DNA from: a virus
Lineage: Duplodnaviria; Caudoviricetes
Virus record (IMG/VR): IMGVR_UViG_3300026518_000670
Span: 1 to 55,640 of that record
DNA length: 55,640 bases
Strand: one strand, 5' to 3'
The translations under genes were made by a program, and so were the position numbers. The notes beneath the pieces are model-generated. The model did no database searches. It was not told the DNA's origin and saw nothing but the letters and a program-made list of their open reading frames with translations. Each line of letters begins with the position of its first letter. Position 1 is the first letter of the stretch. Positions 30,538 through 39,321 of this stretch are shown one piece after another.

Positions 30538-30990
30538 TCAACCCTGTCCGGCCACCTTGGCGTGCTCGATGACCGTGGCCAGATGATCGGAAACCCCTTT
30601 GCGCGGGCTATCCTTGGTCTGCTCCAGGGCATGGGCACACTTGACCACTTCGATGCTGCTGACCGCGCGAAGCAAGCCCTTGATTTCCTCGGCGGTTCCC
30701 GAAATAAGTGATTCGGCTTCATCACGCACTTCCTGCGCAAAACTGGCCAGGCCCAGACTGTCATCGTCTTCGTCTTCGTCTTGATCATTCGGCAGCGGTG
30801 GCGGATTGCGCTGCAACTTTGCGCCCGCGGGGTAGAAGTGTCCGGTCTCGATCAGCCCCTTGGCATCCTTGTCCGGTACTTCACTGACAAATTCGCCATT
30901 TTTGTCACGCTTGAAGACGTAGCGCGATCCGAAGTAATCGACGTTGCGCACATCAACATTCTTTGGCTTGATCGCACTTACAAGTTTCAT
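30538..30990 (-). CDS. Hypothetical protein
   Basis: 150-aa ORF, same strand as the operon, with an acidic linker. Confidence 0.6.
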   Translation of the reverse strand: MKLVSAIKPKNVDVRNVDYFGSRYVFKRDKNGEFVSEVPDKDAKGLIETGHFYPAGAKLQRNPPPLPNDQDEDEDDDSLGLASFAQEVRDEAESLISGTAEEIKGLLRAVSSIEVVKCAHALEQTKDSPRKGVSDHLATVIEHAKVAGQG

Positions 30991-31014
30991 CTTTGATTTC
31001 CCGTGACGGTAATG

Positions 31015-31041
31015 AAAACCCCCGGCATCACGCCGGGGGTT
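31015..31041 (-). terminator. Rho-independent terminator after head genes
   Basis: AACCCCCGGC-GTGAT-GCCGGGGGTT-TT on the minus strand. Confidence 0.7.
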
Positions 31042-31077
31042 GGGTCGATCCTATGGTCTGCTTACCTCGACCATGGA

Positions 31078-31521
31078 TCAGTCGACAGCGTGATCCCAGG
31101 CACGCACGGCCAGGTCCAGCTGCACCTTGCCGGCGGCAGCCTGTGTGGCCAGCGCGGCGGTCAAGGTCAGATAGATCGGCACTTCCACGTCGGGATCGCC
31201 GATGGCCACATCCGGAAGCGAACCCACGTTGCGGGTAACGGCCGTCCCTGCTGTCAGGCCGGTGGCCAGTGCGGTTGGCGTGACCAACGTGCCGACGTTG
31301 TAGGTGCCGGTTGGGGTGGCATTGGAATCCAGCACCGGGAAACTCAACCGCGTCAGGTGTGGGATGAGCTTGCTGCCTGCCGGCACTACGCCGACCTGGA
31401 TCACATCACCGTTCAGGTACGCCGGCGCGCCAGACAAATCGATAGATTGACGATCGACGTACACGGCACCGGAAGTCTCCGGGGTGACCCGTGGCTTCTG
31501 CTTGGCATTGTCGTACTGCAT
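31078..31521 (-). CDS. Putative capsid cement/decoration protein
   Basis: Directly after the capsid gene. AAGAGG SD before ATG at 31521. GDVIQVGVVPAGS beta-sandwich pattern. Confidence 0.6.
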   Translation of the reverse strand: MQYDNAKQKPRVTPETSGAVYVDRQSIDLSGAPAYLNGDVIQVGVVPAGSKLIPHLTRLSFPVLDSNATPTGTYNVGTLVTPTALATGLTAGTAVTRNVGSLPDVAIGDPDVEVPIYLTLTAALATQAAAGKVQLDLAVRAWDHAVD

Positions 31522-31566
31522 GAGAAGGTACCTCTTGGAAGATGGAACTGCACTGAATGGCAAATG

Positions 31567-31590
31567 CCCTGCCGGCTCATGCCGGCAGGG
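31567..31590 (-). promoter_or_regulatory. AUGA-loop RNA hairpin 3
   Basis: CCCTGCCGGC-ATGA-GCCGGCAGGG, perfect 10-bp stem, no poly-U tail. Confidence 0.6.
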
Positions 31591-31611
31591 TCAGTTCACC
31601 GGTCTGATGTA

Positions 31612-32712
31612 TCAGTTCGGATCGAGCGCGTACGTGTCGACCGAATAGGCGCCGAAGCGCGCGCCCTTGAACCACGCGGCCTTGGTGCCCTTGATCGTGG
31701 ACGACGTGATTACCACCTGGTTGCCGCGATCCTCGGTCTCCTCGAACCAGTCGAAACGAAGACCCTGGCCGGGTGAACCATAGGCGTTGAGCAGCGCCTG
31801 CCGGCCCATGAATGCGGCGCGTGCGGCAGGCTGCAGCGAATCGACGCCGGCATCGTTGAACCGGATGATCGCCTGGTGGCTATGCAACACCACGCCGCGG
31901 TACTCGCCCATGGAGCCGGTATAGATCGGGTTGGATTTGCCGCGTTGGCTGGCAATCTTCTGGATGTCCAGCCACTGACCCGTCGTCGTGTTCGTACGCA
32001 GGGCATGCTCCTGGAACGGATGCATGCACATCACGTACTTGTTCTCGCCGTTGATGCGAATCGGCCGGATACGGATCTTGCCCGATGCGCCACCACCACT
32101 GGTCTGGGCCTTGGTCACACAGCGATCGACGACACGCAGATCCATGGCGTCATCGGCACCGATGTTGTTGAAGGCCGTGGCATTGCCGCCGTACACGATA
32201 TGACCGGTGTCGGGAGCCTGGAGCGGGTTGCCCGCATATCCGGTATATCCGGGATCCTCGATGAAGTCATCGTTGATGCCGCGGGCGCCTGCCAGGTAGA
32301 TCATCTGGCATTCGTCGTCCCAGCGCGCCCACCATTCGGCCATGCGTGCCCGGGCCACGGTGCGCAGGTTGTGCAGGGTGCGCTTGCGCGACATCCGGCC
32401 ACCGGCATTGACGCCACAGCGGATCTGGTCGACGTTGACCTTGTCCGTGAACGGCTGCAATGCCTCTTCCTTGCCGCGCAGCACGGCATCGCCGTACGTC
32501 GGCTTCTGGGTCAACTGACCGAACAGCGTGACGGTGATGGAGTCACCGGCTTCGGATTCGAGTTCGGTCAGCACCTGGATCGGTGTCGGCGCATCGACTG
32601 CCTTGCTCGAGAAACGTGCGCCGAAGTAACTTTCGCGCGCCATGTCCACAAACAGGGCGGCCGACCAGCGCTTGACTGCGACTGGATCATTGATACCCAC
32701 AATCGTCTGCAT
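31612..32712 (-). CDS. Major capsid protein, N4-gp56 family (DUF4043-like)
   Basis: AVKRWS, ELESEAGDSIT, GKEEAL, DQIRCGV...GGRMSRKRTLHNLR, IFxG-like IYTGSMGEYRGVVLHSH, WFEETEDRGN. Confidence 0.9.
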   Translation of the reverse strand: MQTIVGINDPVAVKRWSAALFVDMARESYFGARFSSKAVDAPTPIQVLTELESEAGDSITVTLFGQLTQKPTYGDAVLRGKEEALQPFTDKVNVDQIRCGVNAGGRMSRKRTLHNLRTVARARMAEWWARWDDECQMIYLAGARGINDDFIEDPGYTGYAGNPLQAPDTGHIVYGGNATAFNNIGADDAMDLRVVDRCVTKAQTSGGGASGKIRIRPIRINGENKYVMCMHPFQEHALRTNTTTGQWLDIQKIASQRGKSNPIYTGSMGEYRGVVLHSHQAIIRFNDAGVDSLQPAARAAFMGRQALLNAYGSPGQGLRFDWFEETEDRGNQVVITSSTIKGTKAAWFKGARFGAYSVDTYALDPN

Positions 32713-32741
32713 GAGTCTTTCCTCTTGATTTTCAGGGGTTC

Positions 32742-32788
32742 GGCACTCATGCGCCTGATGATGGAACGCGGGTGCTCATGCGCCCGCG
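32742..32788 (-). promoter_or_regulatory. Two AUGA-loop RNA hairpins in the capsid 5' UTR
   Basis: CGCGGGCGC-ATGA-GCACCCGCG (32767-32788) and GGCGC-ATGA-GTGCC (32742-32755). Confidence 0.6.
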
Positions 32789-32800
32789 GGTTCGGCCAGG

Positions 32801-33046
32801 TCAGGCCGTGATTGGTGTGCGCTGCAGGACTGGTCGCCCGGCGTGCGGCTTCTCGCTTCTTTCCGTCGGATAAACGCGCGACAGGGCCTTGCTCGAAGGG
32901 ATCTTCGCACCTGCCTTGTACGCCTGAATATCCTCGTTACTGTCAATGCTGATCCGCGCCCGCTTCCCGGATTTTTCCTCGAGCTTGATCACCGAGTCTC
33001 CGATCCGGACGGCATCGCCCGGGGCAAGATCAAGCTTCAACGCCAT
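32801..33046 (-). CDS. Small protein with CsrA/RsmA-like beta pattern
   Basis: LKLDLAPGDAVRIGD-SVIKLEEKSGKRARISIDS aligns by eye with CsrA [35 protein letters not shown]. Lacks the CsrA HR44 motif. Confidence 0.55.
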   Translation of the reverse strand: MALKLDLAPGDAVRIGDSVIKLEEKSGKRARISIDSNEDIQAYKAGAKIPSSKALSRVYPTERSEKPHAGRPVLQRTPITA

Positions 33047-33049
33047 CGG

Positions 33050-34045
33050 TTACTGGCCTCGGATATCCGAGCCCGGGCTGCTCGACAGATACCGCTCGCG
33101 CTCGGATTCGCTCATGTTGGCCATGGCATCTTCCAGGTCGCTGATGTCGGCATTGTCGAGTTGGGAATAGGTCGCGTTGCCGCGGGAATCCACGTCGGCA
33201 GCGGCGGGCGCGCGTTCCAGGTCGGGTGTTTTCTCACTCTTGTCCTGCCGCTTGCTGACCGCCTCAGTGATTTTGCGCGAATCCTCATGCTTGCGCGCTG
33301 GCGCCGGTGACTGTCCGGCACCTGGCTGTTGGTAGTTGAGGGCCTCGAAAGCCGTCTCTTCGGCGCGCCTGATCAGGGCAGCGGGAGTCAACGTGCCATT
33401 GGTCTGCTGATCAATGAGCGCGATGGCGTTCTGCATGGCCTGCGCACGGATGGGATTGGCCATGAAATGCTGGTTCTTGGATTCCCACTGCTTGGCTTCG
33501 GCCTCGAAATTGCTCTGTGCCTCTGCCGCTTGTTCGCTCTGAGCACTCTCCCACGCCTCATGCCTCGCCACGTAGCGGGATTCTTCGCGGTTGAGCTCGC
33601 GCAGCTGCTGCTGATACTCGAACGTGTCAAGATCGCCGTTATCGTACTTTTCAGCCAGCGACTTGAATTCGGCATCGAAATCCTTTGGTGCAGTGGGTTC
33701 GGGCTCCGCCGCGCGCGCGGTTCTCGTCTCATCGGCAGCATCGGCATCATCACCCGCGGGTTTGCCCTGGTCCTGGTCCTCGTCACCGGCATCGGGTTTG
33801 CCAGACGAGTCATCACCTGCTGTATCCGCACCATCGTCCCCGCCATCCTGCGCGCCGCTCGCGTCCGCATTGGCGTCCTTTTCGGTCTCCGACCCATCGG
33901 CATCGTCCGCGTGGCCTGCTTCGGCCTCACCCTTGTCGTCCTGATCAATCTCGCCGGCCAGTCTGGATTCTTCTTCCAAAGGCTCCAAGCCATTGTTGAC
34001 GTCGTCTTCGATGTCGTTTTCGTCGCGGTTGTTTTCGGTGCTCAT
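33050..34045 (-). CDS. Putative scaffolding protein
   Basis: Very acidic N-terminus plus coiled coil. Lies between portal and capsid genes. Confidence 0.7.
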   Translation of the reverse strand: MSTENNRDENDIEDDVNNGLEPLEEESRLAGEIDQDDKGEAEAGHADDADGSETEKDANADASGAQDGGDDGADTAGDDSSGKPDAGDEDQDQGKPAGDDADAADETRTARAAEPEPTAPKDFDAEFKSLAEKYDNGDLDTFEYQQQLRELNREESRYVARHEAWESAQSEQAAEAQSNFEAEAKQWESKNQHFMANPIRAQAMQNAIALIDQQTNGTLTPAALIRRAEETAFEALNYQQPGAGQSPAPARKHEDSRKITEAVSKRQDKSEKTPDLERAPAAADVDSRGNATYSQLDNADISDLEDAMANMSESERERYLSSSPGSDIRGQ

Positions 34046-36222
34046 GGTGTCTCCGACATGTCCGGTAGTTGCGGTTTGTGGGCATCCGTGGTCTGCACGG
34101 CCGGCCCGTGGAATAGCCGATCAGCGGCTGGTGCGAGTGGTAGAACACGTGAAAGGATCGATGCGGTATCAATGGCGTCACGTTTGCCAGCGACCGTGAT
34201 CTGCCGTGCACGTGCAGCCGCTTCTCCGGCGCGTGCCATCTTGAGATTGACCTCGGCATTGAGGCTGGCATCTTGCAGGCCCTGCTGGCGCGCCGCTTCT
34301 TTTGCCTTCTGCTCTTCAGCTTGCTTCACTTCGGGCGAATTTTCCTTGCCCAGTGCCACCTGACCATTGATCTTGCGTATGCGCGCCGCCAGCTCGTTCT
34401 TGTTCGGCAGGTCCGTGATGTCGATGGCGATATCCAGAAGCTGGACAGCCACATCGCCTGGCAGGCGCCCAATCAACTCGAACAGAGATTCGGCCAGGGC
34501 CATGCGGATGGTCTCGCGATAGTCCATCTGGTCGACGATGAAATCGGCCTGCTGCCGGGCGATGTCGTTTTCAAACACGACCTCCCCTGTTACCGGATCC
34601 AGCTTGGGCTGGTTGATCTTGATCCATTCCAGGCCGCCATCAGGCCCAGAGATGCGGATGACCTGGGGGAGCGTCATGAATTGCTCCGTCAGGCTGACGG
34701 TCTTCTGCCCACTGATCTGGATGGATTGGCGGTAATTGTCGAAAAGCGCGGCCGTGGTCACGGCGCCCTGCTGTTGCTTGGCCAAGATCGCGCGCCCGGA
34801 TTGGTCGCCTACACTCTGGCCCGTGTTCTCGCGCGTTACCCCACTGGCTTCGAAGATGTTGTTCTTGGCCTCGGCCAACATCTCCATCTGGCCATTGGCC
34901 TTGGCCTCATTCGTGCGGATCACGAATTTCCCGGAACTCAGGGCCCCTGGCTTGAGCCGCATCTCGCCATCGGAGCGATGCGCCTCATCCAGCACAGTTT
35001 CTTCTGAGTCCTCATCGACAGCATCGGACTCATACATCACCTGCTGGGTGCTCAGATCAAACAGGATCTTCGAGCGCCTCTTGTTGTATTCGTCCTGCGC
35101 ATCACGAGCAGGCCGCACCAGTCCGTACGGCATGCCATCCCGGTGCCGGCGCTTGCACCACACTGCGGTGAACGGGAACTCGCCATGCTTGTATGGGCTT
35201 TTCTGGACCTTGAGCAATGCTCCGGGCGTCCAGAACGCCACCCACACTTCTTCCGCCACGCTGTCGACCAGACTGACCACACCCGTGCTGACGGCCTCGG
35301 CCATGTCCCGATCTTCCGGGTCATAGGTCTTGCCGTGGTAGTCATCTTCCCCATAGGCCACCATGGTCTTGGTCGGCTTGATCTTGCGGTACCACGTCTC
35401 GATGACCAGCACCCGCTGTCGCGCGCCCTGGATAGCCAGGCCGTTGATCATGCTGCCGTGGGTGATGATCCGGGAGCCACGACCGTAAAACATCTGGGGC
35501 ATGGTCCCGTCCAGCTCCATCTGCTCCTGTTCGAGCCCGTACATCGCCACGGTCTGATTGCGCAGCGCCTGCTCACGATCCGGGAACAGCGCGGTGGCGT
35601 AGTCAAGATCCAGCCACTTTGGTCGATGGATGTAACGGCAATCCTTCAGATCATTGCGGACGGAAAATGGGTCCCACCACATCGATTTCCAGTCCACGTG
35701 GCGCAAACCCACCGGGAAATCGAACTTGTCGGATCGGTAGTATTCCTCCATCCATCCCACGCCGACGATGGCAGCATCCGTGAAGGCACGGCTGCGCTCC
35801 CATCCTGCGCCGTTCTGATCTGAAACGAACTTCAGGACCTCCTTTTTGACCTGCGCACCCTTCACGTCGTCGTCTTCGCGCGGGAGCACATCCCAGTCGA
35901 TACGCGTGCGCCGTTCCGTTCCGGCCACCCAATCCACCATCATCGTGATGATGGGGAATGTCAGGGGTGCTTGGCCGCGATCCTCCAGGACCTTGGCGTC
36001 CTCCGGGGACCATTGTTCGACATCGTAGTAGTCGTGATCCTTCCACATTTCAGCCCGGTTGTCGGCATGGCCATTCAGCGCTTCGGCCCACCACGCTTCG
36101 AACTGGGCAAGATGTTCTCGATAGGGCTGCGCGTCGTACCTGTGCGTGGTCAGCGAGTCGAGCGTGATGCCTCCCCCATGCTCGGAGAACGCATCCTTGG
36201 ACTGGATCAGGTTGATGTCCAT
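34042..36222 (-). CDS. Portal protein (P22-like)
   Basis: DYYD..QW...LEDRGQAPL, GVGWME, SPYKHGEFPF, PYGLVR..RDAQDEYNKRRSK, SGRAILAKQQQG. Confidence 0.9.
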   Translation of the reverse strand: MDINLIQSKDAFSEHGGGITLDSLTTHRYDAQPYREHLAQFEAWWAEALNGHADNRAEMWKDHDYYDVEQWSPEDAKVLEDRGQAPLTFPIITMMVDWVAGTERRTRIDWDVLPREDDDVKGAQVKKEVLKFVSDQNGAGWERSRAFTDAAIVGVGWMEEYYRSDKFDFPVGLRHVDWKSMWWDPFSVRNDLKDCRYIHRPKWLDLDYATALFPDREQALRNQTVAMYGLEQEQMELDGTMPQMFYGRGSRIITHGSMINGLAIQGARQRVLVIETWYRKIKPTKTMVAYGEDDYHGKTYDPEDRDMAEAVSTGVVSLVDSVAEEVWVAFWTPGALLKVQKSPYKHGEFPFTAVWCKRRHRDGMPYGLVRPARDAQDEYNKRRSKILFDLSTQQVMYESDAVDEDSEETVLDEAHRSDGEMRLKPGALSSGKFVIRTNEAKANGQMEMLAEAKNNIFEASGVTRENTGQSVGDQSGRAILAKQQQGAVTTAALFDNYRQSIQISGQKTVSLTEQFMTLPQVIRISGPDGGLEWIKINQPKLDPVTGEVVFENDIARQQADFIVDQMDYRETIRMALAESLFELIGRLPGDVAVQLLDIAIDITDLPNKNELAARIRKINGQVALGKENSPEVKQAEEQKAKEAARQQGLQDASLNAEVNLKMARAGEAAARARQITVAGKRDAIDTASILSRVLPLAPAADRLFHGPAVQTTDAHKPQLPDMSETP

Positions 36223-36223
36223 A

Positions 36224-36688
36224 TCAGCCAACCACGCGCTTGCCGCCGCGCTCAACAAAGAAATCGAGACCGTCCTGGGCACAGCGCTCCATGAATGCAT
36301 CCAAGCTCCGGTCCTTGAACATGTCTGGATCCGGCGGAGAATTCTTCAGGTCTTCCATGAAATCCATGATCGCGTCGAGTAGCCGAAAACAGTCATCCTT
36401 GGTCACAAACCCCCATATCTGACGAGCCAGTGGTGGCACCATCTCGCTCAGCGCATCGCGCTCAGCGAATCGCCACATGTCCCCCAGCTTCACATAGACC
36501 CCGGCTTGTGGATTTCCGCGTCGGCACAACCACAAGGCTGCTTCGTGACGATGATTTGGTGTGCCGAAATCGCCGTAATGCAGCTCGATGACCAGGTCGC
36601 CCTTGCCCCCCACGAACGAGTACCTGCGAGACACACTTCCGGCATGCTGTTCCTCGGCGAGATGCGATGGGACAATGATGGCACTCAT
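36224..36688 (-). CDS. Hypothetical protein
   Basis: 154-aa ORF between terL and portal. Confidence 0.65.
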   Translation of the reverse strand: MSAIIVPSHLAEEQHAGSVSRRYSFVGGKGDLVIELHYGDFGTPNHRHEAALWLCRRGNPQAGVYVKLGDMWRFAERDALSEMVPPLARQIWGFVTKDDCFRLLDAIMDFMEDLKNSPPDPDMFKDRSLDAFMERCAQDGLDFFVERGGKRVVG

Positions 36689-36837
36689 GATTTTTGCTCA
36701 CCCTCTCGCGCGGTGCGAACCCAGGCATTGTGCTGAATCATTCGAGCTACAACCTGTGATCCATGGCCGTACAACGCACCTCGAATAGCAATGGCGAGGA
36801 TCCTGTGCATGGGTATCGTGTGGGTCTCCTGTTTCAT
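36685..36837 (-). CDS. Small hypothetical protein (50 aa, MKQETHTIP...), absent from the ORF track
   Basis: ATGA overlaps at both ends (terL stop at 36834; next start at 36688). Confidence 0.55.
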   Translation of the reverse strand: MKQETHTIPMHRILAIAIRGALYGHGSQVVARMIQHNAWVRTAREGEQKS

Positions 36838-38408
36838 GCGGTCTTCCATCCTCGATGGCGCTCTCGGCGCCGGCTTGTTGTGGACTGGTCATTGACACCC
36901 TGCAGCGGATAGCCCTGTGCAAACTGGCGGAAAGCATCCGCACCGTTCGAGGCCCAGTTGTGCAGCGGATAGTCGTGCCAGGCCTGCACCGTGTCATTCC
37001 ACTTGTGCTGGTAGGCTGCCAGCGCCAGCAGTCCACCCCTGCCTTCCCCGGGGATGATCTCTCCGCACCGGGTAGCATCAAATCGACACCGTCCGAACAC
37101 CTGGCGCACCATGTCGATGCCATCGTTGATGTTCTCGATGCGCGGCACCATCACTGTTGGCCTGACCCCGAGGCTTTCCAGGACCTGCAGGCGCGTCATG
37201 TTGCCTTCGGCTGCCCAGTCGGTATTGACCCCGTCATGAGGCAGATAATGGCGGCCGTAGTGATAGCCGAGCTCTTGTAGCTTGCGGGCGTAGAAAGCGG
37301 CTTGTTCGCCGCTGTTTTCGTAGTAGTCGATGAAGTGATGCCAGGGACCGACCTGCTGGTGGAACCAGATCGCCGTCGTGTCGTTCATGCCGATGTCCCA
37401 GAACGTGTTTACTGGCACGCCCGGGATGACCGGTAGATCGCAGACCCGACCATCCTTGTACGCCTTGGTCAGCTGCTTGCCGTAGTACGCCCCCTCCACG
37501 TGCACCGCAAACGCTTCTTCAGGCGTGGAAGGGTGCTCCTGCTTCATCTTGTCGCCCTGCTCTTCAGACTTTTTGACGTACCATGCTTTTTGTCGCGCGC
37601 TGAGCGCGATGCCGTGATCAGCGGCCAAGGTCTCGAAGTAGGCTTCAAGCTCGCTCGGAATGGGCACTCCGTCGGGGTCCAGCACATTGACGGGATCCTC
37701 AAACCACGCGGAAAAGCTGAACCGGTAATCCATGCTGCTCAGCTTGGCCGTTCCGGCCTCGACCATGGCTTGCAGCTTCTGTGCACGCGTGCACATCCGG
37801 TAGAAATCGCCCAGCCTTCCATGGGCCGTGCTCTCGATCGTGCACAGGCAGTCCGGGGGAAGCGTGTTCAGTGCACCTGTTTTGACCTCGCCGGCGCGCA
37901 GCGGCCAGAACGCTCCCATCGGCCCGTATTCGGACACCCAGAGAAACTGCAGGGTGCCACCACGATGGCTGAGACCGACGGTGATTCGGCTTCCATTCGA
38001 CAATTCGATCTCACCGGTCATATCGCGCCTGACCAGCGTACGCACGTCCCTGAGCCACCCTGGCAACCGGTCGTAGGCAAACAGCACCTTGGTGCGGAAA
38101 ACCTTCTCGGCCTCCGAAGCCTGGTGCATCACGATGCCGCATGCGGTGTTGGATCGAAATAACGCGGTATCCAGCGCAAGGATCGAACCCAGCGTGGTCA
38201 TGCCATGCTGGCGGGACTTGAGCTTGATATTGCGTATGTGCATGTTGGCGAGAAACTCGCTCTGCACATGGTTGGGCTTGAAGACGATCTCACGCCCATG
38301 CTTGTCCAGAATCTTGTACAGGTTCGACAGGCGCCATTCCCGATCCTGCAACAGCCGCTTGAGACGATCGATCTTTGCCTGATCTATCTCATGGCTACTC
38401 GGTCGCAT
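36834..38408 (-). CDS. terL: Terminase large subunit
   Basis: Walker A LKSRQHGMTT, Walker B FLWVSE, motif IESTA, nuclease WDIG, C-terminal HNWASNGADAFR. Confidence 0.92.
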   Translation of the reverse strand: MRPSSHEIDQAKIDRLKRLLQDREWRLSNLYKILDKHGREIVFKPNHVQSEFLANMHIRNIKLKSRQHGMTTLGSILALDTALFRSNTACGIVMHQASEAEKVFRTKVLFAYDRLPGWLRDVRTLVRRDMTGEIELSNGSRITVGLSHRGGTLQFLWVSEYGPMGAFWPLRAGEVKTGALNTLPPDCLCTIESTAHGRLGDFYRMCTRAQKLQAMVEAGTAKLSSMDYRFSFSAWFEDPVNVLDPDGVPIPSELEAYFETLAADHGIALSARQKAWYVKKSEEQGDKMKQEHPSTPEEAFAVHVEGAYYGKQLTKAYKDGRVCDLPVIPGVPVNTFWDIGMNDTTAIWFHQQVGPWHHFIDYYENSGEQAAFYARKLQELGYHYGRHYLPHDGVNTDWAAEGNMTRLQVLESLGVRPTVMVPRIENINDGIDMVRQVFGRCRFDATRCGEIIPGEGRGGLLALAAYQHKWNDTVQAWHDYPLHNWASNGADAFRQFAQGYPLQGVNDQSTTSRRRERHRGWKTA

Positions 38409-39321
38409 CGCCAGGGATCCCGGTTCCGGCCCCGTCGATGGCACTTAGCATGTCTTCCAGCGCTCGATGGTTGTGGTCTACCTTACCCTCGAACCGACGC
38501 GTGAACATGCCGATATGTTTGCCGTAGTCGATCAACGCACCCTTCTGATCGTGCGTCAGCACCTGGATACCGTGCTGGGTCATTTTCACGCCGGCGAACA
38601 GCAGCTTGGCTTCAGGGCCAAGATCGCGAGTGTCCTTGATCAGGACCGCCTCGATACCCCTGCCAAAGCACTCCGGGCAGTCTGGGTTCGGGTCGTGATA
38701 CGGGTTGAATCCGGTTCCCCCCTCTTCATCGAACTGATGTTTTGACGGGTTCTTGCAGGCTTCCTTCTGATGTTTTGACGGGTTCTTGCAGGCTTCCTTC
38801 AGTTCTTTCTCCCAGTTCTTCCTGGCCTCGACCATCTCCTGTGGCGTGCGCTGGAACCGATGACCATCGCCCCAGCAGTACCTGCAGCAGCAGCGCCATA
38901 CTTCAGTCAGCTCACGTGCATCGGCCGTGGCGATGGCCACCAGCCTGGCGGCGACATCATCTGCCTCCATACCGTTGCGCTGTGCGATGTCATGCATGCC
39001 TTCCTGAATCTTCGACTGGACCTCCGGAAGAGCAAGCAGGTCCGATGCCTGGGTTCGGGCGCTGCGCGGGCTGTACCCGGCCTCGATCGCAGCCTGACGC
39101 CCATTGTGGTGCACCAGGTAGCGCTGCACGAAGACCTCGACCCTGGAGATGCCTCGCTGCTTCTGCTTTCCTGTGGTTTTGGCAGTGTGGTTGGCGGTCT
39201 TCTTGGCCGGCGAACGCTTGGCCGCAGGCCGCTTCTTCACCGGTGCAGGACGTGCACCCTTGGCCCTACTCGATTTGACGGCCTTGGCGGTTTTCTTGGC
39301 GGTAGTTTTTTTGGTGGCCAT
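38395..39321 (-). CDS. terS: Terminase small subunit
   Basis: FVQRYLVHHNGRQAAIEAGYS...ASDLL HTH, CCRYC...CPEC insert, Lys/Ala-rich N-tail. Confidence 0.88.
   Translation of the reverse strand: MATKKTTAKKTAKAVKSSRAKGARPAPVKKRPAAKRSPAKKTANHTAKTTGKQKQRGISRVEVFVQRYLVHHNGRQAAIEAGYSPRSARTQASDLLALPEVQSKIQEGMHDIAQRNGMEADDVAARLVAIATADARELTEVWRCCCRYCWGDGHRFQRTPQEMVEARKNWEKELKEACKNPSKHQKEACKNPSKHQFDEEGGTGFNPYHDPNPDCPECFGRGIEAVLIKDTRDLGPEAKLLFAGVKMTQHGIQVLTHDQKGALIDYGKHIGMFTRRFEGKVDHNHRALEDMLSAIDGAGTGIPGDATE
38734..38799. repeat. Perfect 33-bp tandem duplication inside terS
   Basis: CTGATGTTTTGACGGGTTCTTGCAGGCTTCCTT twice, encoding KEACKNPSKHQ twice. Confidence 0.95.

What the first reader, a model, noticed from the sequence alone, without database searches (positions are those of the whole stretch)
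31515..33046. CsrA-like protein with three AUGA-loop hairpins complementary to capsid and cement start codons: candidate translational control circuit
Seen in sequence: two hairpins in the capsid 5' UTR (32767-32788, 32742-32755) and one between the capsid and the next gene (31567-31590) all present GC-AUGA-G at the apex. Both downstream genes share the SD AAGAGG and the start context CUC-AUG-CAG. CUCAUGC is the exact reverse complement of GCAUGAG; for the capsid, an 8-nt GCAUGAGU/ACUCAUGC pairing links 32745-32752 with 32709-32716. A GCCGAACCC direct repeat brackets the UTR hairpins. Established: CsrA/RsmA dimers bind two hairpin loops carrying ANGGA. Inference: the 81-aa CsrA-like protein encoded directly upstream has altered specificity (AUGA). 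It may stabilise the hairpins and so free the AUG from an inhibitory alternative pairing, coupling capsid and cement synthesis.
Basis: partly seen in the sequence, partly recalled or inferred. Interest (0 to 1): 0.82.

Follow-up and report, generated by a model that had tools for sequence, protein, structure and literature searches.

The report
Phage CsrA-like protein, capsid-leader RNA switch
A prophage encodes a very diverged relative of the bacterial RNA-binding regulator CsrA right next to its capsid gene, and the capsid messenger starts with a widely conserved small hairpin that can either stand alone or fold over the capsid start signal, so the pair probably forms a switch for capsid production.

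Summary
All three GC-AUGA-G hairpins, the shared AAGAGG/CUCAUGCAG start contexts and the 8-bp alternative pairing sit at the stated coordinates.

The 81-aa protein is a diverged CsrA-family member (PHROG 8397 E=1.7e-11; family profile to RsmE 2jpp E=1.6e-6).

In loci chosen only by capsid homology:
- A CsrA-like ORF occurs in 144 of 166 sequences.
- 94 of 100 unique capsid leaders hold one hairpin, GCGC-A(N)GA-GUGC.
- The loop is AGGA, the canonical CsrA site, in most; it is AUGA in the window's clade.
- Outer stem pairs covary.
- Loop plus 3' arm is complementary to the capsid start region, and naked-RNA folding prefers that occluding pairing in 90 of 94 leaders.

Best reading: the protein binds the hairpin and frees the start site. 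Binding and direction are inferred.

Not supported:
- A window-specific AUGA specificity. Loop position 2 changes at least 20 times on the capsid tree, and single phages carry both AGGA and AUGA versions.
- Conservation of the third hairpin's AUGA loop.

My literature searches found no description. Earlier AI notes of this scan report the same system on other DNA.

The parts
32801..33046 (-). CsrA-like protein gene (81 aa, P0001). It lies between the scaffold-like gene and the capsid gene.
   Evidence: PHROG 8397 'CsrA-like regulator', E=1.7e-11. Pfam CsrA scores only 12.8 bits, below the cut-off of 27. The family profile A3 hits RsmE 2jpp at E=1.6e-6 and 7 further CsrA entries. The top Foldseek matches of the AF2 model (pLDDT 74.7) are CsrA/RsmA/RsmE chains, though with E of 0.07 or worse. 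The same position is annotated 'CsrA-like regulator' in Bcep22 and GP4.
32767..32788 (-). Leader hairpin 1 with apex GC-AUGA-GC. Candidate first docking site.
   Evidence: Folds. In 17 leaders of the two-hairpin clade, RNAalifold predicts it with compensatory changes in 4 of 7 pairs, while the apex stays conserved. The CM built on hairpin 2 gives it only 9.0 bits, E=6.1.
32742..32755 (-). Leader hairpin 2, GGCGC-AUGA-GUGCC. This is the family-wide conserved hairpin; its loop and 3' arm are also the anti-start-site strand.
   Evidence: A strict hairpin is present in 94 of 100 unique leaders. Alignment A4 gives a covariation score of 0.238 against 0.120 shuffled, with 0 of 500 shuffles as high. 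CM R1 scores it 23.3 bits, E=7.8e-4, the only hit in the window below E=0.01.
32709..32716 (-). ACUCAUGC: the capsid start codon (32710-32712) and flanks. It pairs with 32745-32752 in the occluded form.
   Evidence: MFE of the leader. The unpaired probability of the AUG is 0.01 in the window and averages 0.03 in the AUGA class, n=24.
32721..32726 (-). Capsid Shine-Dalgarno AAGAGG. It contains GGA within AGAGGA, counting the following A.
   Evidence: Read.
31612..32712 (-). Major capsid protein gene (366 aa).
   Evidence: Pfam Phage_capsid_3 E=4.3e-51. PHROG 334 'major head protein' E=7e-100.
31567..31590 (-). Hairpin 3: 10-bp GC-rich stem with apex GC-AUGA-GC, between the capsid gene and the next gene. 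Possible extra docking site, or an ordinary inter-cistronic stabiliser.
   Evidence: Many relatives have a GC-rich hairpin at this place, but with other loops such as UUCG, GCAA and GGAA. Only L149 (AAGA) and L128 (AGGAA) resemble the leader element. It is not among the CM R1 hits with E up to 10.
31518..31524 (-). CUCAUGC at the start of the next gene (AUG at 31519-31521). It is the exact complement of the hairpin apex GCAUGAG.
   Evidence: The 6 nearest relatives lack CUCAUG here.
31078..31521 (-). Virion structural (decoration-like) protein gene, 147 aa. Positional counterpart of Bcep22 gp56.
   Evidence: PHROG 8455 'virion structural protein', weak at E=0.0019. 27% identity to Bcep22 gp56, E=2e-4.
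31015..31039 (-). Terminator-like hairpin followed by a U run; the likely end of the capsid transcription unit.
   Evidence: Read. A terminator is annotated at the same place in Bcep22. The simple scan did not list it.
33050..34045 (-). Scaffold-like gene (331 aa). It overlaps the portal stop by 4 nt.
   Evidence: PHROG 8246, E=3e-17. Position read.

Best explanation
The window holds the head module of a Bcep22-like prophage: terminase, P22-type portal, scaffold-like gene, CsrA-like gene, capsid, virion protein, terminator.

The capsid leader is a two-state RNA.
- State 1 has hairpin 2 (GGCGC-AUGA-GUGCC), with hairpin 1 beside it, and an open start site.
- State 2 has the loop and 3' arm of hairpin 2 paired with ACUCAUGC. 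This buries the capsid AUG.
- State 2 is the more stable state for naked RNA.

The dimeric CsrA-fold protein encoded just upstream most likely docks on the loops of hairpins 1 and 2, which are 29 nt apart. That would lock state 1 and switch capsid translation on, or keep it on. CsrA does this at E. coli ymdA, and the Com protein of phage Mu does it at mom.

Shown: CsrA-family homology of the protein; conservation and covariation of the hairpin; conserved, class-specific complementarity to the start region; linkage of gene and hairpin across relatives.

Inferred: that this protein binds the hairpin, that it is a dimer, and that the effect is activation.

The loop rule in this family is A-N-G-A, with N = G, U or A. 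AUGA is therefore one of its normal variants rather than a private code.
For: Protein:
- PHROG 8397 at E=1.7e-11.
- The profile of 48 family members hits RsmE 2jpp at E=1.6e-6 and 7 other CsrA entries.
- The top fold matches are CsrA chains, TM 0.6-0.8 normalised to the target.

Linkage. The loci were picked by capsid homology alone.
- A CsrA-like ORF is found in 144 of 166 sequences. Most of the misses have under 300 nt of upstream sequence.
- 131 leaders were extracted, of which 100 are unique.
- 94 of the 100 hold the strict hairpin 19-43 nt before the AUG.
- Where an extra gene separates the two, the hairpin stays with the capsid start.
- L015 and L122 have neither the gene nor a canonical hairpin.
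- Hairpin density is 12.7 per kb in leaders against 0.39 per kb elsewhere.

RNA-level structure:
- Pair 4-18 of alignment A4 is AU 24, GC 20, CG 15.
- A G.U wobble is kept in 72 of 75 distinct rows.
- The covariation score is 0.238 against 0.120 shuffled, 0 of 500 shuffles as high.
- The stem of hairpin 1 covaries under a conserved apex.

Switch:
- Duplex energy with the phage's own start region averages -12.5 kcal/mol. It is -10.2 with other phages' start regions (z=-10.7) and -7.1 with shuffled ones. Each loop class pairs best with its own class.
- The ungapped paired run is 6.59, against 5.56+/-0.12 permuted.
- The occluding pairing has probability above 0.5 in 90 of 94 leaders.
- In the window it is favoured by 6 kcal/mol.

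Ligand logic:
- The commonest loop is AGGA in a short hairpin. That is the known CsrA site type: GGA in a hairpin loop (SELEX consensus, passages of PMC7652899).
- Burkholderia hosts of Bcep22-like phages are reported to lack a chromosomal csrA (passage of PMC7366521). There the phage protein is the only CsrA-type ligand.
- The 29-nt spacing lies inside the 10-63 nt range that a CsrA dimer can bridge.

Precedents:
- CsrA activates ymdA by destabilising a structure that blocks ribosome binding (abstract of PMC7492729).
Against: - No binding, dimer or expression data exist for any member.
- Pfam's own CsrA model is far below its cut-off: 12.8 against 27 bits. BLASTP finds no alignment to the host's canonical CsrA.
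- Foldseek E-values are not significant, at 0.07 or worse.
- All permutation tests on the leaders are confounded by relatedness.
- The phylogenetically controlled test of 'AUGA loop goes with CUCAUG start' has no power and is null: 7 independent pairs, median p=1. The raw table is 12 of 24 against 5 of 70.
- Hairpin 2 does not vary within the window's own clade, so it shows no covariation there.
- Single-hairpin relatives with an AGGA loop and an AAGGAG Shine-Dalgarno look like classical dual-site CsrA-repressed leaders. In 13 of 67 relatives the scaffold AUG sits inside the loop of the same hairpin, where binding would repress. The sign of control may therefore differ, or be repression throughout.
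- L131 and L162 have the hairpin but no detectable CsrA-like gene in the DNA held.
- Six of the 100 unique leaders fail the strict definition.
Confidence: 0.5

Rival explanations
1. Dual-site repression with homeostasis. The CsrA-like dimer binds the hairpin loop(s) together with the GGA of the Shine-Dalgarno (AAGAGGA here, AAGGAG in most relatives) and blocks ribosome entry, as CsrA does on glgC or on B. subtilis hag. A phage assembly protein could then titrate it, as FliW does, tying capsid synthesis to assembly.
For: - The architecture of an upstream hairpin plus a GGA-bearing Shine-Dalgarno 20-40 nt downstream is the classical repressed leader (passages of PMC7652899).
- hag is likewise an abundant structural subunit held in homeostasis by CsrA and FliW.
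- In 13 of 67 relatives the scaffold start codon lies in the AUGA loop of the same hairpin core, where a bound protein must block initiation.
- One peptide of the JC1 homologue was found in purified virions, which hints at contact with head proteins (passage of PMC9144972).
Against: - It gives no role to the conserved, class-specific complementarity between hairpin and start region. That pairing already shuts the site in 90 of 94 predicted ensembles.
- A repressor acting on top of a self-occluding leader would leave the most abundant virion protein without a way to be made.
- In the occluded form, both the loop and the Shine-Dalgarno or AUG are paired and so unavailable to the protein.
Confidence: 0.25
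2. RNA-only element. The hairpin and start-region switch tunes or times capsid translation by itself, through kinetic folding, temperature, ribosome standby or mRNA stabilisation, or it is read by a host factor such as the host's canonical CsrA. The neighbouring small protein would then have another job, for example in head assembly.
For: - The host genome has a canonical CsrA: 93.6 bits, [16 protein letters not shown]....
- L131 and L162 keep the hairpin with no CsrA-like gene in the DNA held.
- The JC1 homologue may be virion-associated.
- The complex job gave no verdict on dimer formation, so dimerisation remains unshown.
Against: - Gene and hairpin travel together in nearly all loci that have enough sequence.
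- Loop positions 1, 3 and 4 and the closing pairs are nearly invariant, although several of them are not needed for pairing with the start region. Hairpin 1 keeps its apex while its stem drifts. This points to a trans-acting reader of the loop.
- A canonical CsrA needs GGA, which was 100% conserved in SELEX. AUGA and AAGA loops lack it.
- Burkholderia hosts are reported to lack csrA.
Confidence: 0.2
3. The window's protein has a changed specificity, AUGA instead of GGA. This would form a private circuit insulated from the host's CsrA and would also recruit the next gene through hairpin 3.
For: - All three hairpins in the window carry the same apex, GCAUGAG.
- In two-hairpin relatives the two loops usually match: AUGA/AUGA, AAGA/AAGA in L088, L011, L037 and L028, AUAG/AUAG in L095, AGGA/AGGA in L068.
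- The window's clade has DS/ES where AGGA-class proteins have the CsrA-like AP.
Against: - The loop class changes at least 20 times on the capsid tree, sometimes between close relatives.
- Proteins with nearly the same N-terminal and beta-5 regions go with AGGA, AAGA and AUGA loops; compare L053, L127 and L033.
- Single phages carry both AUGA (scaffold start) and AGGA (capsid leader) versions.
- Some hairpin 1/2 pairs do not match: AUCA, ACGA or AACA with AUGA.
- Matching loops may simply reflect pairing to one and the same start region.
- The AUGA loop of hairpin 3 is not conserved.
Confidence: 0.15

Closest known systems
CsrA/RsmA/RsmE and their GGA-hairpin operators (glgC, hcnA; PDB 2jpp)
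   Same: Small beta-rich protein of the same family by profile and by fold ranking. The target is a short hairpin that presents A-G-G-A in its loop in most relatives. Two sites lie within bridging distance.
   Different: - Phage-encoded and very diverged; below the Pfam cut-off.
- The target is the gene next door in the same operon, not a global regulon.
- The first G of GGA is replaceable, giving AUGA and AAGA loops.
- It has a GCGC/GUGC stem with a fixed G.U pair and a tetraloop or pentaloop, rather than the SELEX hexaloop.
- No decoy sRNA was seen.
CsrA activation of E. coli ymdA (PMC7492729)
   Same: Binding in the leader destabilises a structure that hides the ribosome-binding site (abstract). 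Here the predicted default fold hides the AUG or the Shine-Dalgarno.
   Different: At ymdA the mechanism has been demonstrated; here it is inferred. Here the bound form is proposed to be an alternative hairpin. The design is conserved across at least 94 distinct phage leaders.
Phage Mu Com/mom translational activation (PMC6483171)
   Same: A small phage RNA-binding protein binds the mRNA of a phage gene and activates its translation (abstract start). That com lies directly upstream of mom, and that binding opens a start-site-occluding stem, is my recollection and comes from no call.
   Different: Com is a zinc finger, not a CsrA fold. Its target is a DNA-modification gene, not the capsid.
B. 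subtilis CsrA-FliW-Hag partner switch
   Same: A CsrA-family protein controls translation of a very abundant self-assembling structural subunit through a leader hairpin plus the Shine-Dalgarno (passages of PMC7652899).
   Different: That system is repression, relieved by a protein antagonist. No antagonist has been identified here. Start-region complementarity is not a known feature of the hag leader, as far as I recall.
'CsrA-like regulator' / 'carbon storage regulator' genes of Bcep22-like phages (Bcep22 gp54, JC1 gp47, GP4 gp04)
   Same: Same gene at the same place in the same head module.
   Different: In the passages I read, the literature treats them as moron or host-directed genes of unknown role (PMC9144972; PMC7366521; PMC8450108). 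None of those passages mentions a leader hairpin or the capsid gene as a target.

Membership tests
CsrA/RsmA protein family (Pfam PF02599) | Sequence match to the family model above the curated cut-off. | tested here: not met
   Pfam CsrA scores 12.8 bits, E=0.12, against a cut-off of 27. The host's own CsrA scores 93.6 bits. There is no BLASTP alignment between the two.
CsrA/RsmA protein family (Pfam PF02599) | Remote homology by profile to solved CsrA/RsmE proteins over the RNA-binding core (beta1-beta5). | tested here: met
   The profile of 48 relatives hits RsmE 2jpp at E=1.6e-6 (positions 3-53 against 2-53), and also CsrA entries 1y00, 2bti, 5z38, 1vpz, 7yr6, 5dmb and 1t3o. PHROG 8397 'CsrA-like regulator' scores E=1.7e-11.
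CsrA/RsmA protein family (Pfam PF02599) | CsrA fold. | tested here: inconclusive
   The AF2 monomer has pLDDT 74.7 and pTM 0.46. Eleven of the 12 best-ranked Foldseek rows listed (ranks 1 to 13, before unrelated folds begin) are CsrA, RsmA or RsmE; the other, 5dmb_D, is listed as a translational regulator bound to a flagellar assembly factor. Most align at rmsd about 2 A over 44-46 columns, but E is 0.07 or worse.
CsrA/RsmA protein family (Pfam PF02599) | Interleaved homodimer with two RNA-binding surfaces. | tested here: inconclusive
   The one complex job gave no verdict. See Tried and rejected.
CsrA/RsmA protein family (Pfam PF02599) | Binds GGA in the loop of a short hairpin. | not testable with these tools
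   Indirect only. The conserved neighbouring hairpin has an AGGA-type loop in 50 of 94 unique leaders, AUGA-type in 24 and AAGA in 14.
Phage 'CsrA-like regulator' of Bcep22-like podophages (PHROG 8397) | Match to the PHROG, and position between the scaffold-like gene and the major head gene. | tested here: met
   E=1.7e-11. Same gene order as Bcep22 and GP4. The gene ends 55-130 nt before the capsid start in most of the 131 leaders.
Conserved capsid-leader hairpin of this phage group (no Rfam family) | GCGC-A(N)GA(N)-GUGC hairpin 19-43 nt upstream of the capsid AUG. | tested here: met
   Window hairpin 2 scores 23.3 bits, E=7.8e-4, with the CM built from 94 leaders, itself included. Rfam has no match in 31000-33500 apart from one chance-level hit, E=0.93.
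Conserved capsid-leader hairpin of this phage group (no Rfam family) | Loop plus 3' arm complementary to the phage's own start region. | tested here: met
   8 bp in the window, favoured by 6 kcal/mol. Across the family, the own start region pairs better than permuted ones.
Intrinsic terminator (for hairpin 3) | GC-rich stem followed directly by a U run. | tested here: not met
   The stem is followed by CAUUUGCCAUU. It is not listed by the terminator scan.

The most novel reading that the evidence does not exclude
A whole, widespread group of podophages (Bcep22-like phages and hundreds of environmental relatives) runs its head assembly line with a private CsrA-fold riboregulator. One protein would read one A-N-G-A hairpin placed in different ways:
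- upstream of the capsid start, as the 'on' arm of a bistable leader (activation);
- around the scaffold AUG in some lineages (repression);
- in this window, also before the decoration-like gene.

That would set the scaffold:capsid:decoration ratio at the level of translation. It would be a CsrA relative that has given up the otherwise invariant first G of GGA, and it would turn the so-called csrA 'moron' of these phages into a core morphogenesis gene.
Probability: 0.3. Interest if true: 0.8.

Novelty: new variant of a known kind. Interest (0 to 1): 0.66.

Why it matters
In the passages I read, phage 'csrA' genes are listed as morons or as tools to tamper with host regulation, with no known target. 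My searches found no paper that links them to a hairpin or to the capsid gene.

The data give this gene family a concrete, testable cis-neighbour target. They also define a compact protein-responsive RNA switch: about 14 nt of hairpin plus about 9 nt of complement. The switch is conserved in 94 of 100 distinct leaders, and its loop breaks the GGA rule of CsrA recognition.

If the link is confirmed, several things follow:
- It would be a new example of translational control of virion stoichiometry.
- It would offer a natural set of hairpin variants for studying the specificity of the CsrA fold.
- It would be a small orthogonal part for synthetic translational control.

Tried and rejected
- Word enrichment of GCATGAG in the window: none, 15 seen against 15.4 expected. 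It was dropped as an argument.
- Rfam: no family covers the leader.
- Sigma-70 promoter scan of 30900-34200: none found on either strand. I did not pursue a promoter reading of the leader.
- Hairpin 3 as an intrinsic terminator: no U run, rejected.
- A DNA-level palindrome or protein-DNA site: unlikely, because the stem keeps a G.U pair in 72 of 75 rows and lies only on the sense strand.
- A leader peptide starting at the AUG of hairpin 1 and ending at the UGA of hairpin 2: in frame in the window, not in L086. Rejected.
- Other targets in the window: CM R1 finds only hairpin 2 below E=0.01. The GCGC-AGGAA-GUGC at 30722-30742 lies inside an ORF with no start site after it (E=0.083) and was treated as chance.
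- Protein residues that track the loop class: the alignment sorted by class is dominated by phylogeny. No call was made.
- Independent-pairs test of AUGA against CUCAUG, and of AGGA against UCC: no power, p not significant.
- Homodimer prediction: 'no answer', score 0.32 against a mark of 0.42. It is not evidence either way.
- Sequencing runs: no RNA holder listed.
- The search for homologous proteins found only 1 relative by words. Single-protein scans for the capsid found 1 locus in genome contigs and none in viral contigs, and 1 further genome of 401 in the order. The alignment-based scans then worked.
- Alignment A1 used wrong coordinates for L005 and was replaced by A2.
- Paper search was badly posed (min_terms 1) and uninformative.
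- The founding Bcep22 paper (PMC3187461) is not held. What it, or any supplement, says about gp53/gp54 was not seen.


Full report
**What is there**

All genes in 31000-38500 run on the minus strand.
- A large terminase (36834-38444).
- A P22-type portal (34042-36300; Pfam P22_portal E=5e-144).
- A scaffold-like gene (33050-34045; PHROG 8246).
- An 81-aa ORF (32801-33046).
- The major capsid gene (31612-32712; Phage_capsid_3 E=4.3e-51, PHROG 334 E=7e-100).
- A 147-aa virion-protein gene (31078-31521).

A terminator-like hairpin with a U run follows at about 31015-31039. The order is that of Burkholderia phage Bcep22 and Ralstonia phage GP4, where the small gene is annotated 'CsrA-like regulator'.

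**The observation**

The 8-bp pairing GCAUGAGU/ACUCAUGC is not just possible. It is part of the minimum-free-energy fold of the leader (z=-3.4 against shuffles). It beats the fold with hairpin 2 enforced by 6 kcal/mol (-35.0 against -29.0).

The word GCATGAG is not enriched in the window. Two strict AUGA hairpins in 111 kb of both strands is close to the 1.3 expected. Within the window alone, only the placement is striking.

**The protein**

- Pfam's CsrA model is far below threshold: 12.8 bits against 27.
- BLASTP finds nothing in common with the host's own canonical CsrA, which scores 93.6 bits.
- PHROG 8397 'CsrA-like regulator' matches at E=1.7e-11.
- An exhaustive HMMER search gave 52 hits, most of them proteins of about 50-95 aa.
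- A profile of 48 of them hits RsmE (2jpp) at E=1.6e-6 over the whole beta core, plus seven other CsrA entries.
- An AF2 model (pLDDT 74.7) ranks CsrA, RsmA and RsmE chains first in the PDB, though not significantly.

I take CsrA-family homology as shown. The dimer and RNA binding are inferred.

**Relatives**

I fetched loci by capsid homology only, so that nothing about the leader could bias the set.
- One prophage in Dokdonella soli.
- One further genome of 401 in the order.
- 80 IMG/VR loci and 80 metagenome loci.
- Bcep22 and GP4.

An HMM of the small protein finds an ORF in 144 of 166 sequences. Nearly all of these end 55-130 nt before the capsid start, and most misses have under 300 nt of upstream sequence. 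That gave 131 leaders, of which 100 are unique.

**The hairpin**

Ninety-four of the 100 unique leaders hold a hairpin with a GCGC/GUGC core, closed by C-G, 19-43 nt before the AUG. The loops, read as DNA in the script output, are:
- AGGA 29, AGGAA 9, AGGAC 8, AGGAG 3, AGGAU 1;
- AUGA 21, plus AUGAU, AUGAG and AUGAC once each;
- AAGA 14;
- AUUAG 2, AGCA 2, AUAG 1, ACGA 1.

Of the six failures, three are near-variants (L138, L133, L042), two are unclear (L026, L057), and one leader (L116) was too short to score.

In the 94-row alignment, loop positions 1, 3 and 4 and the four inner pairs are at least 90% conserved. The next pair out is AU 24, GC 20, CG 15 of 75 distinct rows. The covariation score is 0.238 against 0.120 in shuffles (0 of 500 as high) and at most 0.164 in slid controls. 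A G.U pair is kept in 72 of 75 rows, which argues for RNA rather than DNA.

The same definition hits 12.7 per kb in leaders and 0.39 per kb elsewhere in these loci. Where another gene is inserted after the CsrA-like gene, the hairpin stays at the capsid start (GP4; L050, L056, L058, L073, L148 and L159). L015 and L122 have neither gene nor canonical hairpin. L131 and L162 have a hairpin but no detectable gene in the DNA held.

Window hairpin 2 is therefore the local copy of a family-wide element. Its usual loop is the textbook CsrA site, a GGA in a short hairpin loop (passages of PMC7652899).

**The second state**

The loop and 3' arm of the hairpin are complementary to the start region.
- In the AUGA class the partner covers the AUG in 17 of 24 leaders. 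An example is CAUGAGUGC/GCACUCAUG in L087, L009, L010 and L012.
- In the AGGA class the partner covers the Shine-Dalgarno and spacer (median -11 to -3), reaching the AUG in 1 of 50.
- In the AAGA class it ends just before the AUG, as in AAGAGUGC/GCACUCUU in L038 and L114.

Duplex energy with the own start region averages -12.5 kcal/mol. It is -10.2 with other phages' start regions (z=-10.7 over 2000 permutations) and -7.1 with shuffled ones. Each class pairs best with its own class. The ungapped paired run is 6.59, against 5.56+/-0.12 permuted and 4.35+/-0.11 shuffled.

In partition-function folds of hairpin-to-AUG segments, the occluding pairing has probability above 0.5 in 90 of 94 leaders and the local hairpin in 4 of 94. 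The AUG is unpaired with probability 0.03 in the AUGA class. The Shine-Dalgarno is unpaired with probability 0.14 in the AGGA class.

Caveats:
- These tests do not control for relatedness.
- The one test that does is null for lack of power: 7 independent pairs, median p=1. The raw table is 12 of 24 against 5 of 70, Fisher p=1.7e-5.

**The two-hairpin clade**

The window belongs to an 18-row clade on the capsid tree, which also holds Bcep22. In 17 of its leaders RNAalifold predicts both hairpins. Hairpin 1 has compensatory changes in 4 of 7 pairs under a conserved apex. Hairpin 2 is invariant.

The two loops usually match: AUGA/AUGA; AAGA/AAGA in L088 and L011; AUAG/AUAG in L095. They do not always match: AUCA, ACGA or AACA occur with AUGA, and AUGA with ACGA. 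In the window the loops are 29 nt apart, inside the 10-63 nt that a CsrA dimer can bridge.

**Is AUGA a private code?**

Probably not.
- The loop class changes at least 20 times on the capsid tree (shuffled mean 39.3), sometimes between near neighbours.
- Proteins with nearly the same N-terminal strand and beta-5 region accompany all three loops.
- In 13 of 67 relatives with a complete scaffold ORF, the scaffold start codon sits in the AUGA loop of the same hairpin core. The capsid leader of the same phage mostly has an AGGA-type loop.

The simplest reading is an A-N-G-A rule, with N set by what the RNA must pair with or encode.

**Hairpin 3**

Many relatives have a GC-rich hairpin after the capsid gene, but with UUCG, GCAA, GGAA and other loops. 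The six nearest relatives have neither AUGA there nor CUCAUG at the next start. Only L149 (AAGA) and L128 (AGGAA) resemble the leader element.

In the window the 10-bp stem is too stable to be displaced by 7 bp. It may be a recently recruited docking site, or an ordinary inter-cistronic stabiliser with a chance loop.

**Mechanism**

The leader is self-occluding. The occluding strand doubles as a CsrA-type hairpin. A CsrA-type protein is encoded next door. And capsid must be made in bulk. The best-fitting model is therefore that the protein captures the hairpin form and opens the start site.

This has a demonstrated precedent in CsrA at ymdA (abstract of PMC7492729). It has a phage analogue in Com and mom (abstract start of PMC6483171).

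Classical dual-site repression, perhaps with hag/FliW-like homeostasis, is the main rival. The scaffold-start hairpins in relatives favour it.

**Literature and earlier notes**

The passages I read treat these genes as morons or host-directed, with no target named: JC1 (PMC9144972), the Pseudomonas CsrA survey (PMC7366521) and the Serratia Rsm paper (PMC8450108).

Searches for CsrA with Bcep22, for CsrA-like/phage/capsid/hairpin, and for CsrA/prophage/capsid/translational gave nothing on point. The Bcep22 founding paper and all supplements were not available.

Earlier AI notes of this scan describe the same gene-plus-hairpin system on other genomes. I reached my reading before seeing them, and they are not independent evidence.

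Noticed in passing
L119:1263-1276, L022:1268-1281, L030:1285-1296, L043:128-141, L084:1260-1273, L150:649-662, L153:1256-1269 and others: In 13 of 67 relatives with a complete scaffold ORF, the scaffold start codon lies in the AUGA tetraloop of the same GCGC/GUGC hairpin core, right after a Shine-Dalgarno. The capsid leader of the same phage mostly has an AGGA-type loop. The window lacks this: there the portal stop and scaffold start overlap (34042-34045) with no stem.
   Followed up: partly
L102, L144, L061, L030, L071, L134, L139, L146, L152; also L050, L056, L073, L160, L163, L051 (leaders): A conserved CCAAGCAUGGCA element lies about 60-70 nt upstream of the AGGA hairpin. It often encodes the C-terminal VPSMA of the CsrA-like protein. 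It persists, twice in L051, where that gene is displaced, so it may be a nucleotide-level element. Unexplained.
   Followed up: no
window 30722-30742 (-): GCGC-AGGAA-GUGC, an exact core of the family hairpin, lies inside the unannotated 150-aa ORF 30538-30990. CM R1 gives 15.9 bits, E=0.083. No start site follows it, so it is probably chance.
   Followed up: partly
window 31015-31039 (-): A terminator-like 8-bp GC stem with a U run lies right after the decoration-like gene, matching the terminator annotated after gp56 in Bcep22. The simple terminator scan did not list it.
   Followed up: no
L149:3623-3642: This relative has a full family hairpin (CCGGGCGC-AAGA-GUGCCCGG) between its capsid gene and the next gene, followed by ACUCAUG at that gene's start. 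It is the only clear parallel to the window's hairpin 3.
   Followed up: partly
window 32568-32750 (-) and 32747-32779 (-): The AUG in the hairpin 2 loop opens a 60-aa ORF out of frame with the capsid gene. The AUG in the hairpin 1 loop opens a 10-codon frame that stops at the UGA of the hairpin 2 loop. Neither has a Shine-Dalgarno, and the second is not in frame in L086.
   Followed up: partly
L005:2570-2827 (-): In genome G022 the CsrA-like ORF reads through the leader hairpin and overlaps the capsid start by 29 nt. In this lineage the hairpin is therefore coding sequence.
   Followed up: no
window 33284-33290 and 33557-33563 (-): Two more GCAUGAG words lie inside the scaffold-like gene. The first sits in a 14-nt loop of a weak 5-bp stem, by my own reading. 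Seven of the window's 15 copies of the word lie in 31518-33563.
   Followed up: no
G000:C30:8895-9050 (L166): The host genome (2.8 Mb, 54 contigs) carries one canonical CsrA. The phage protein therefore coexists with a GGA-reading host regulator.
   Followed up: partly
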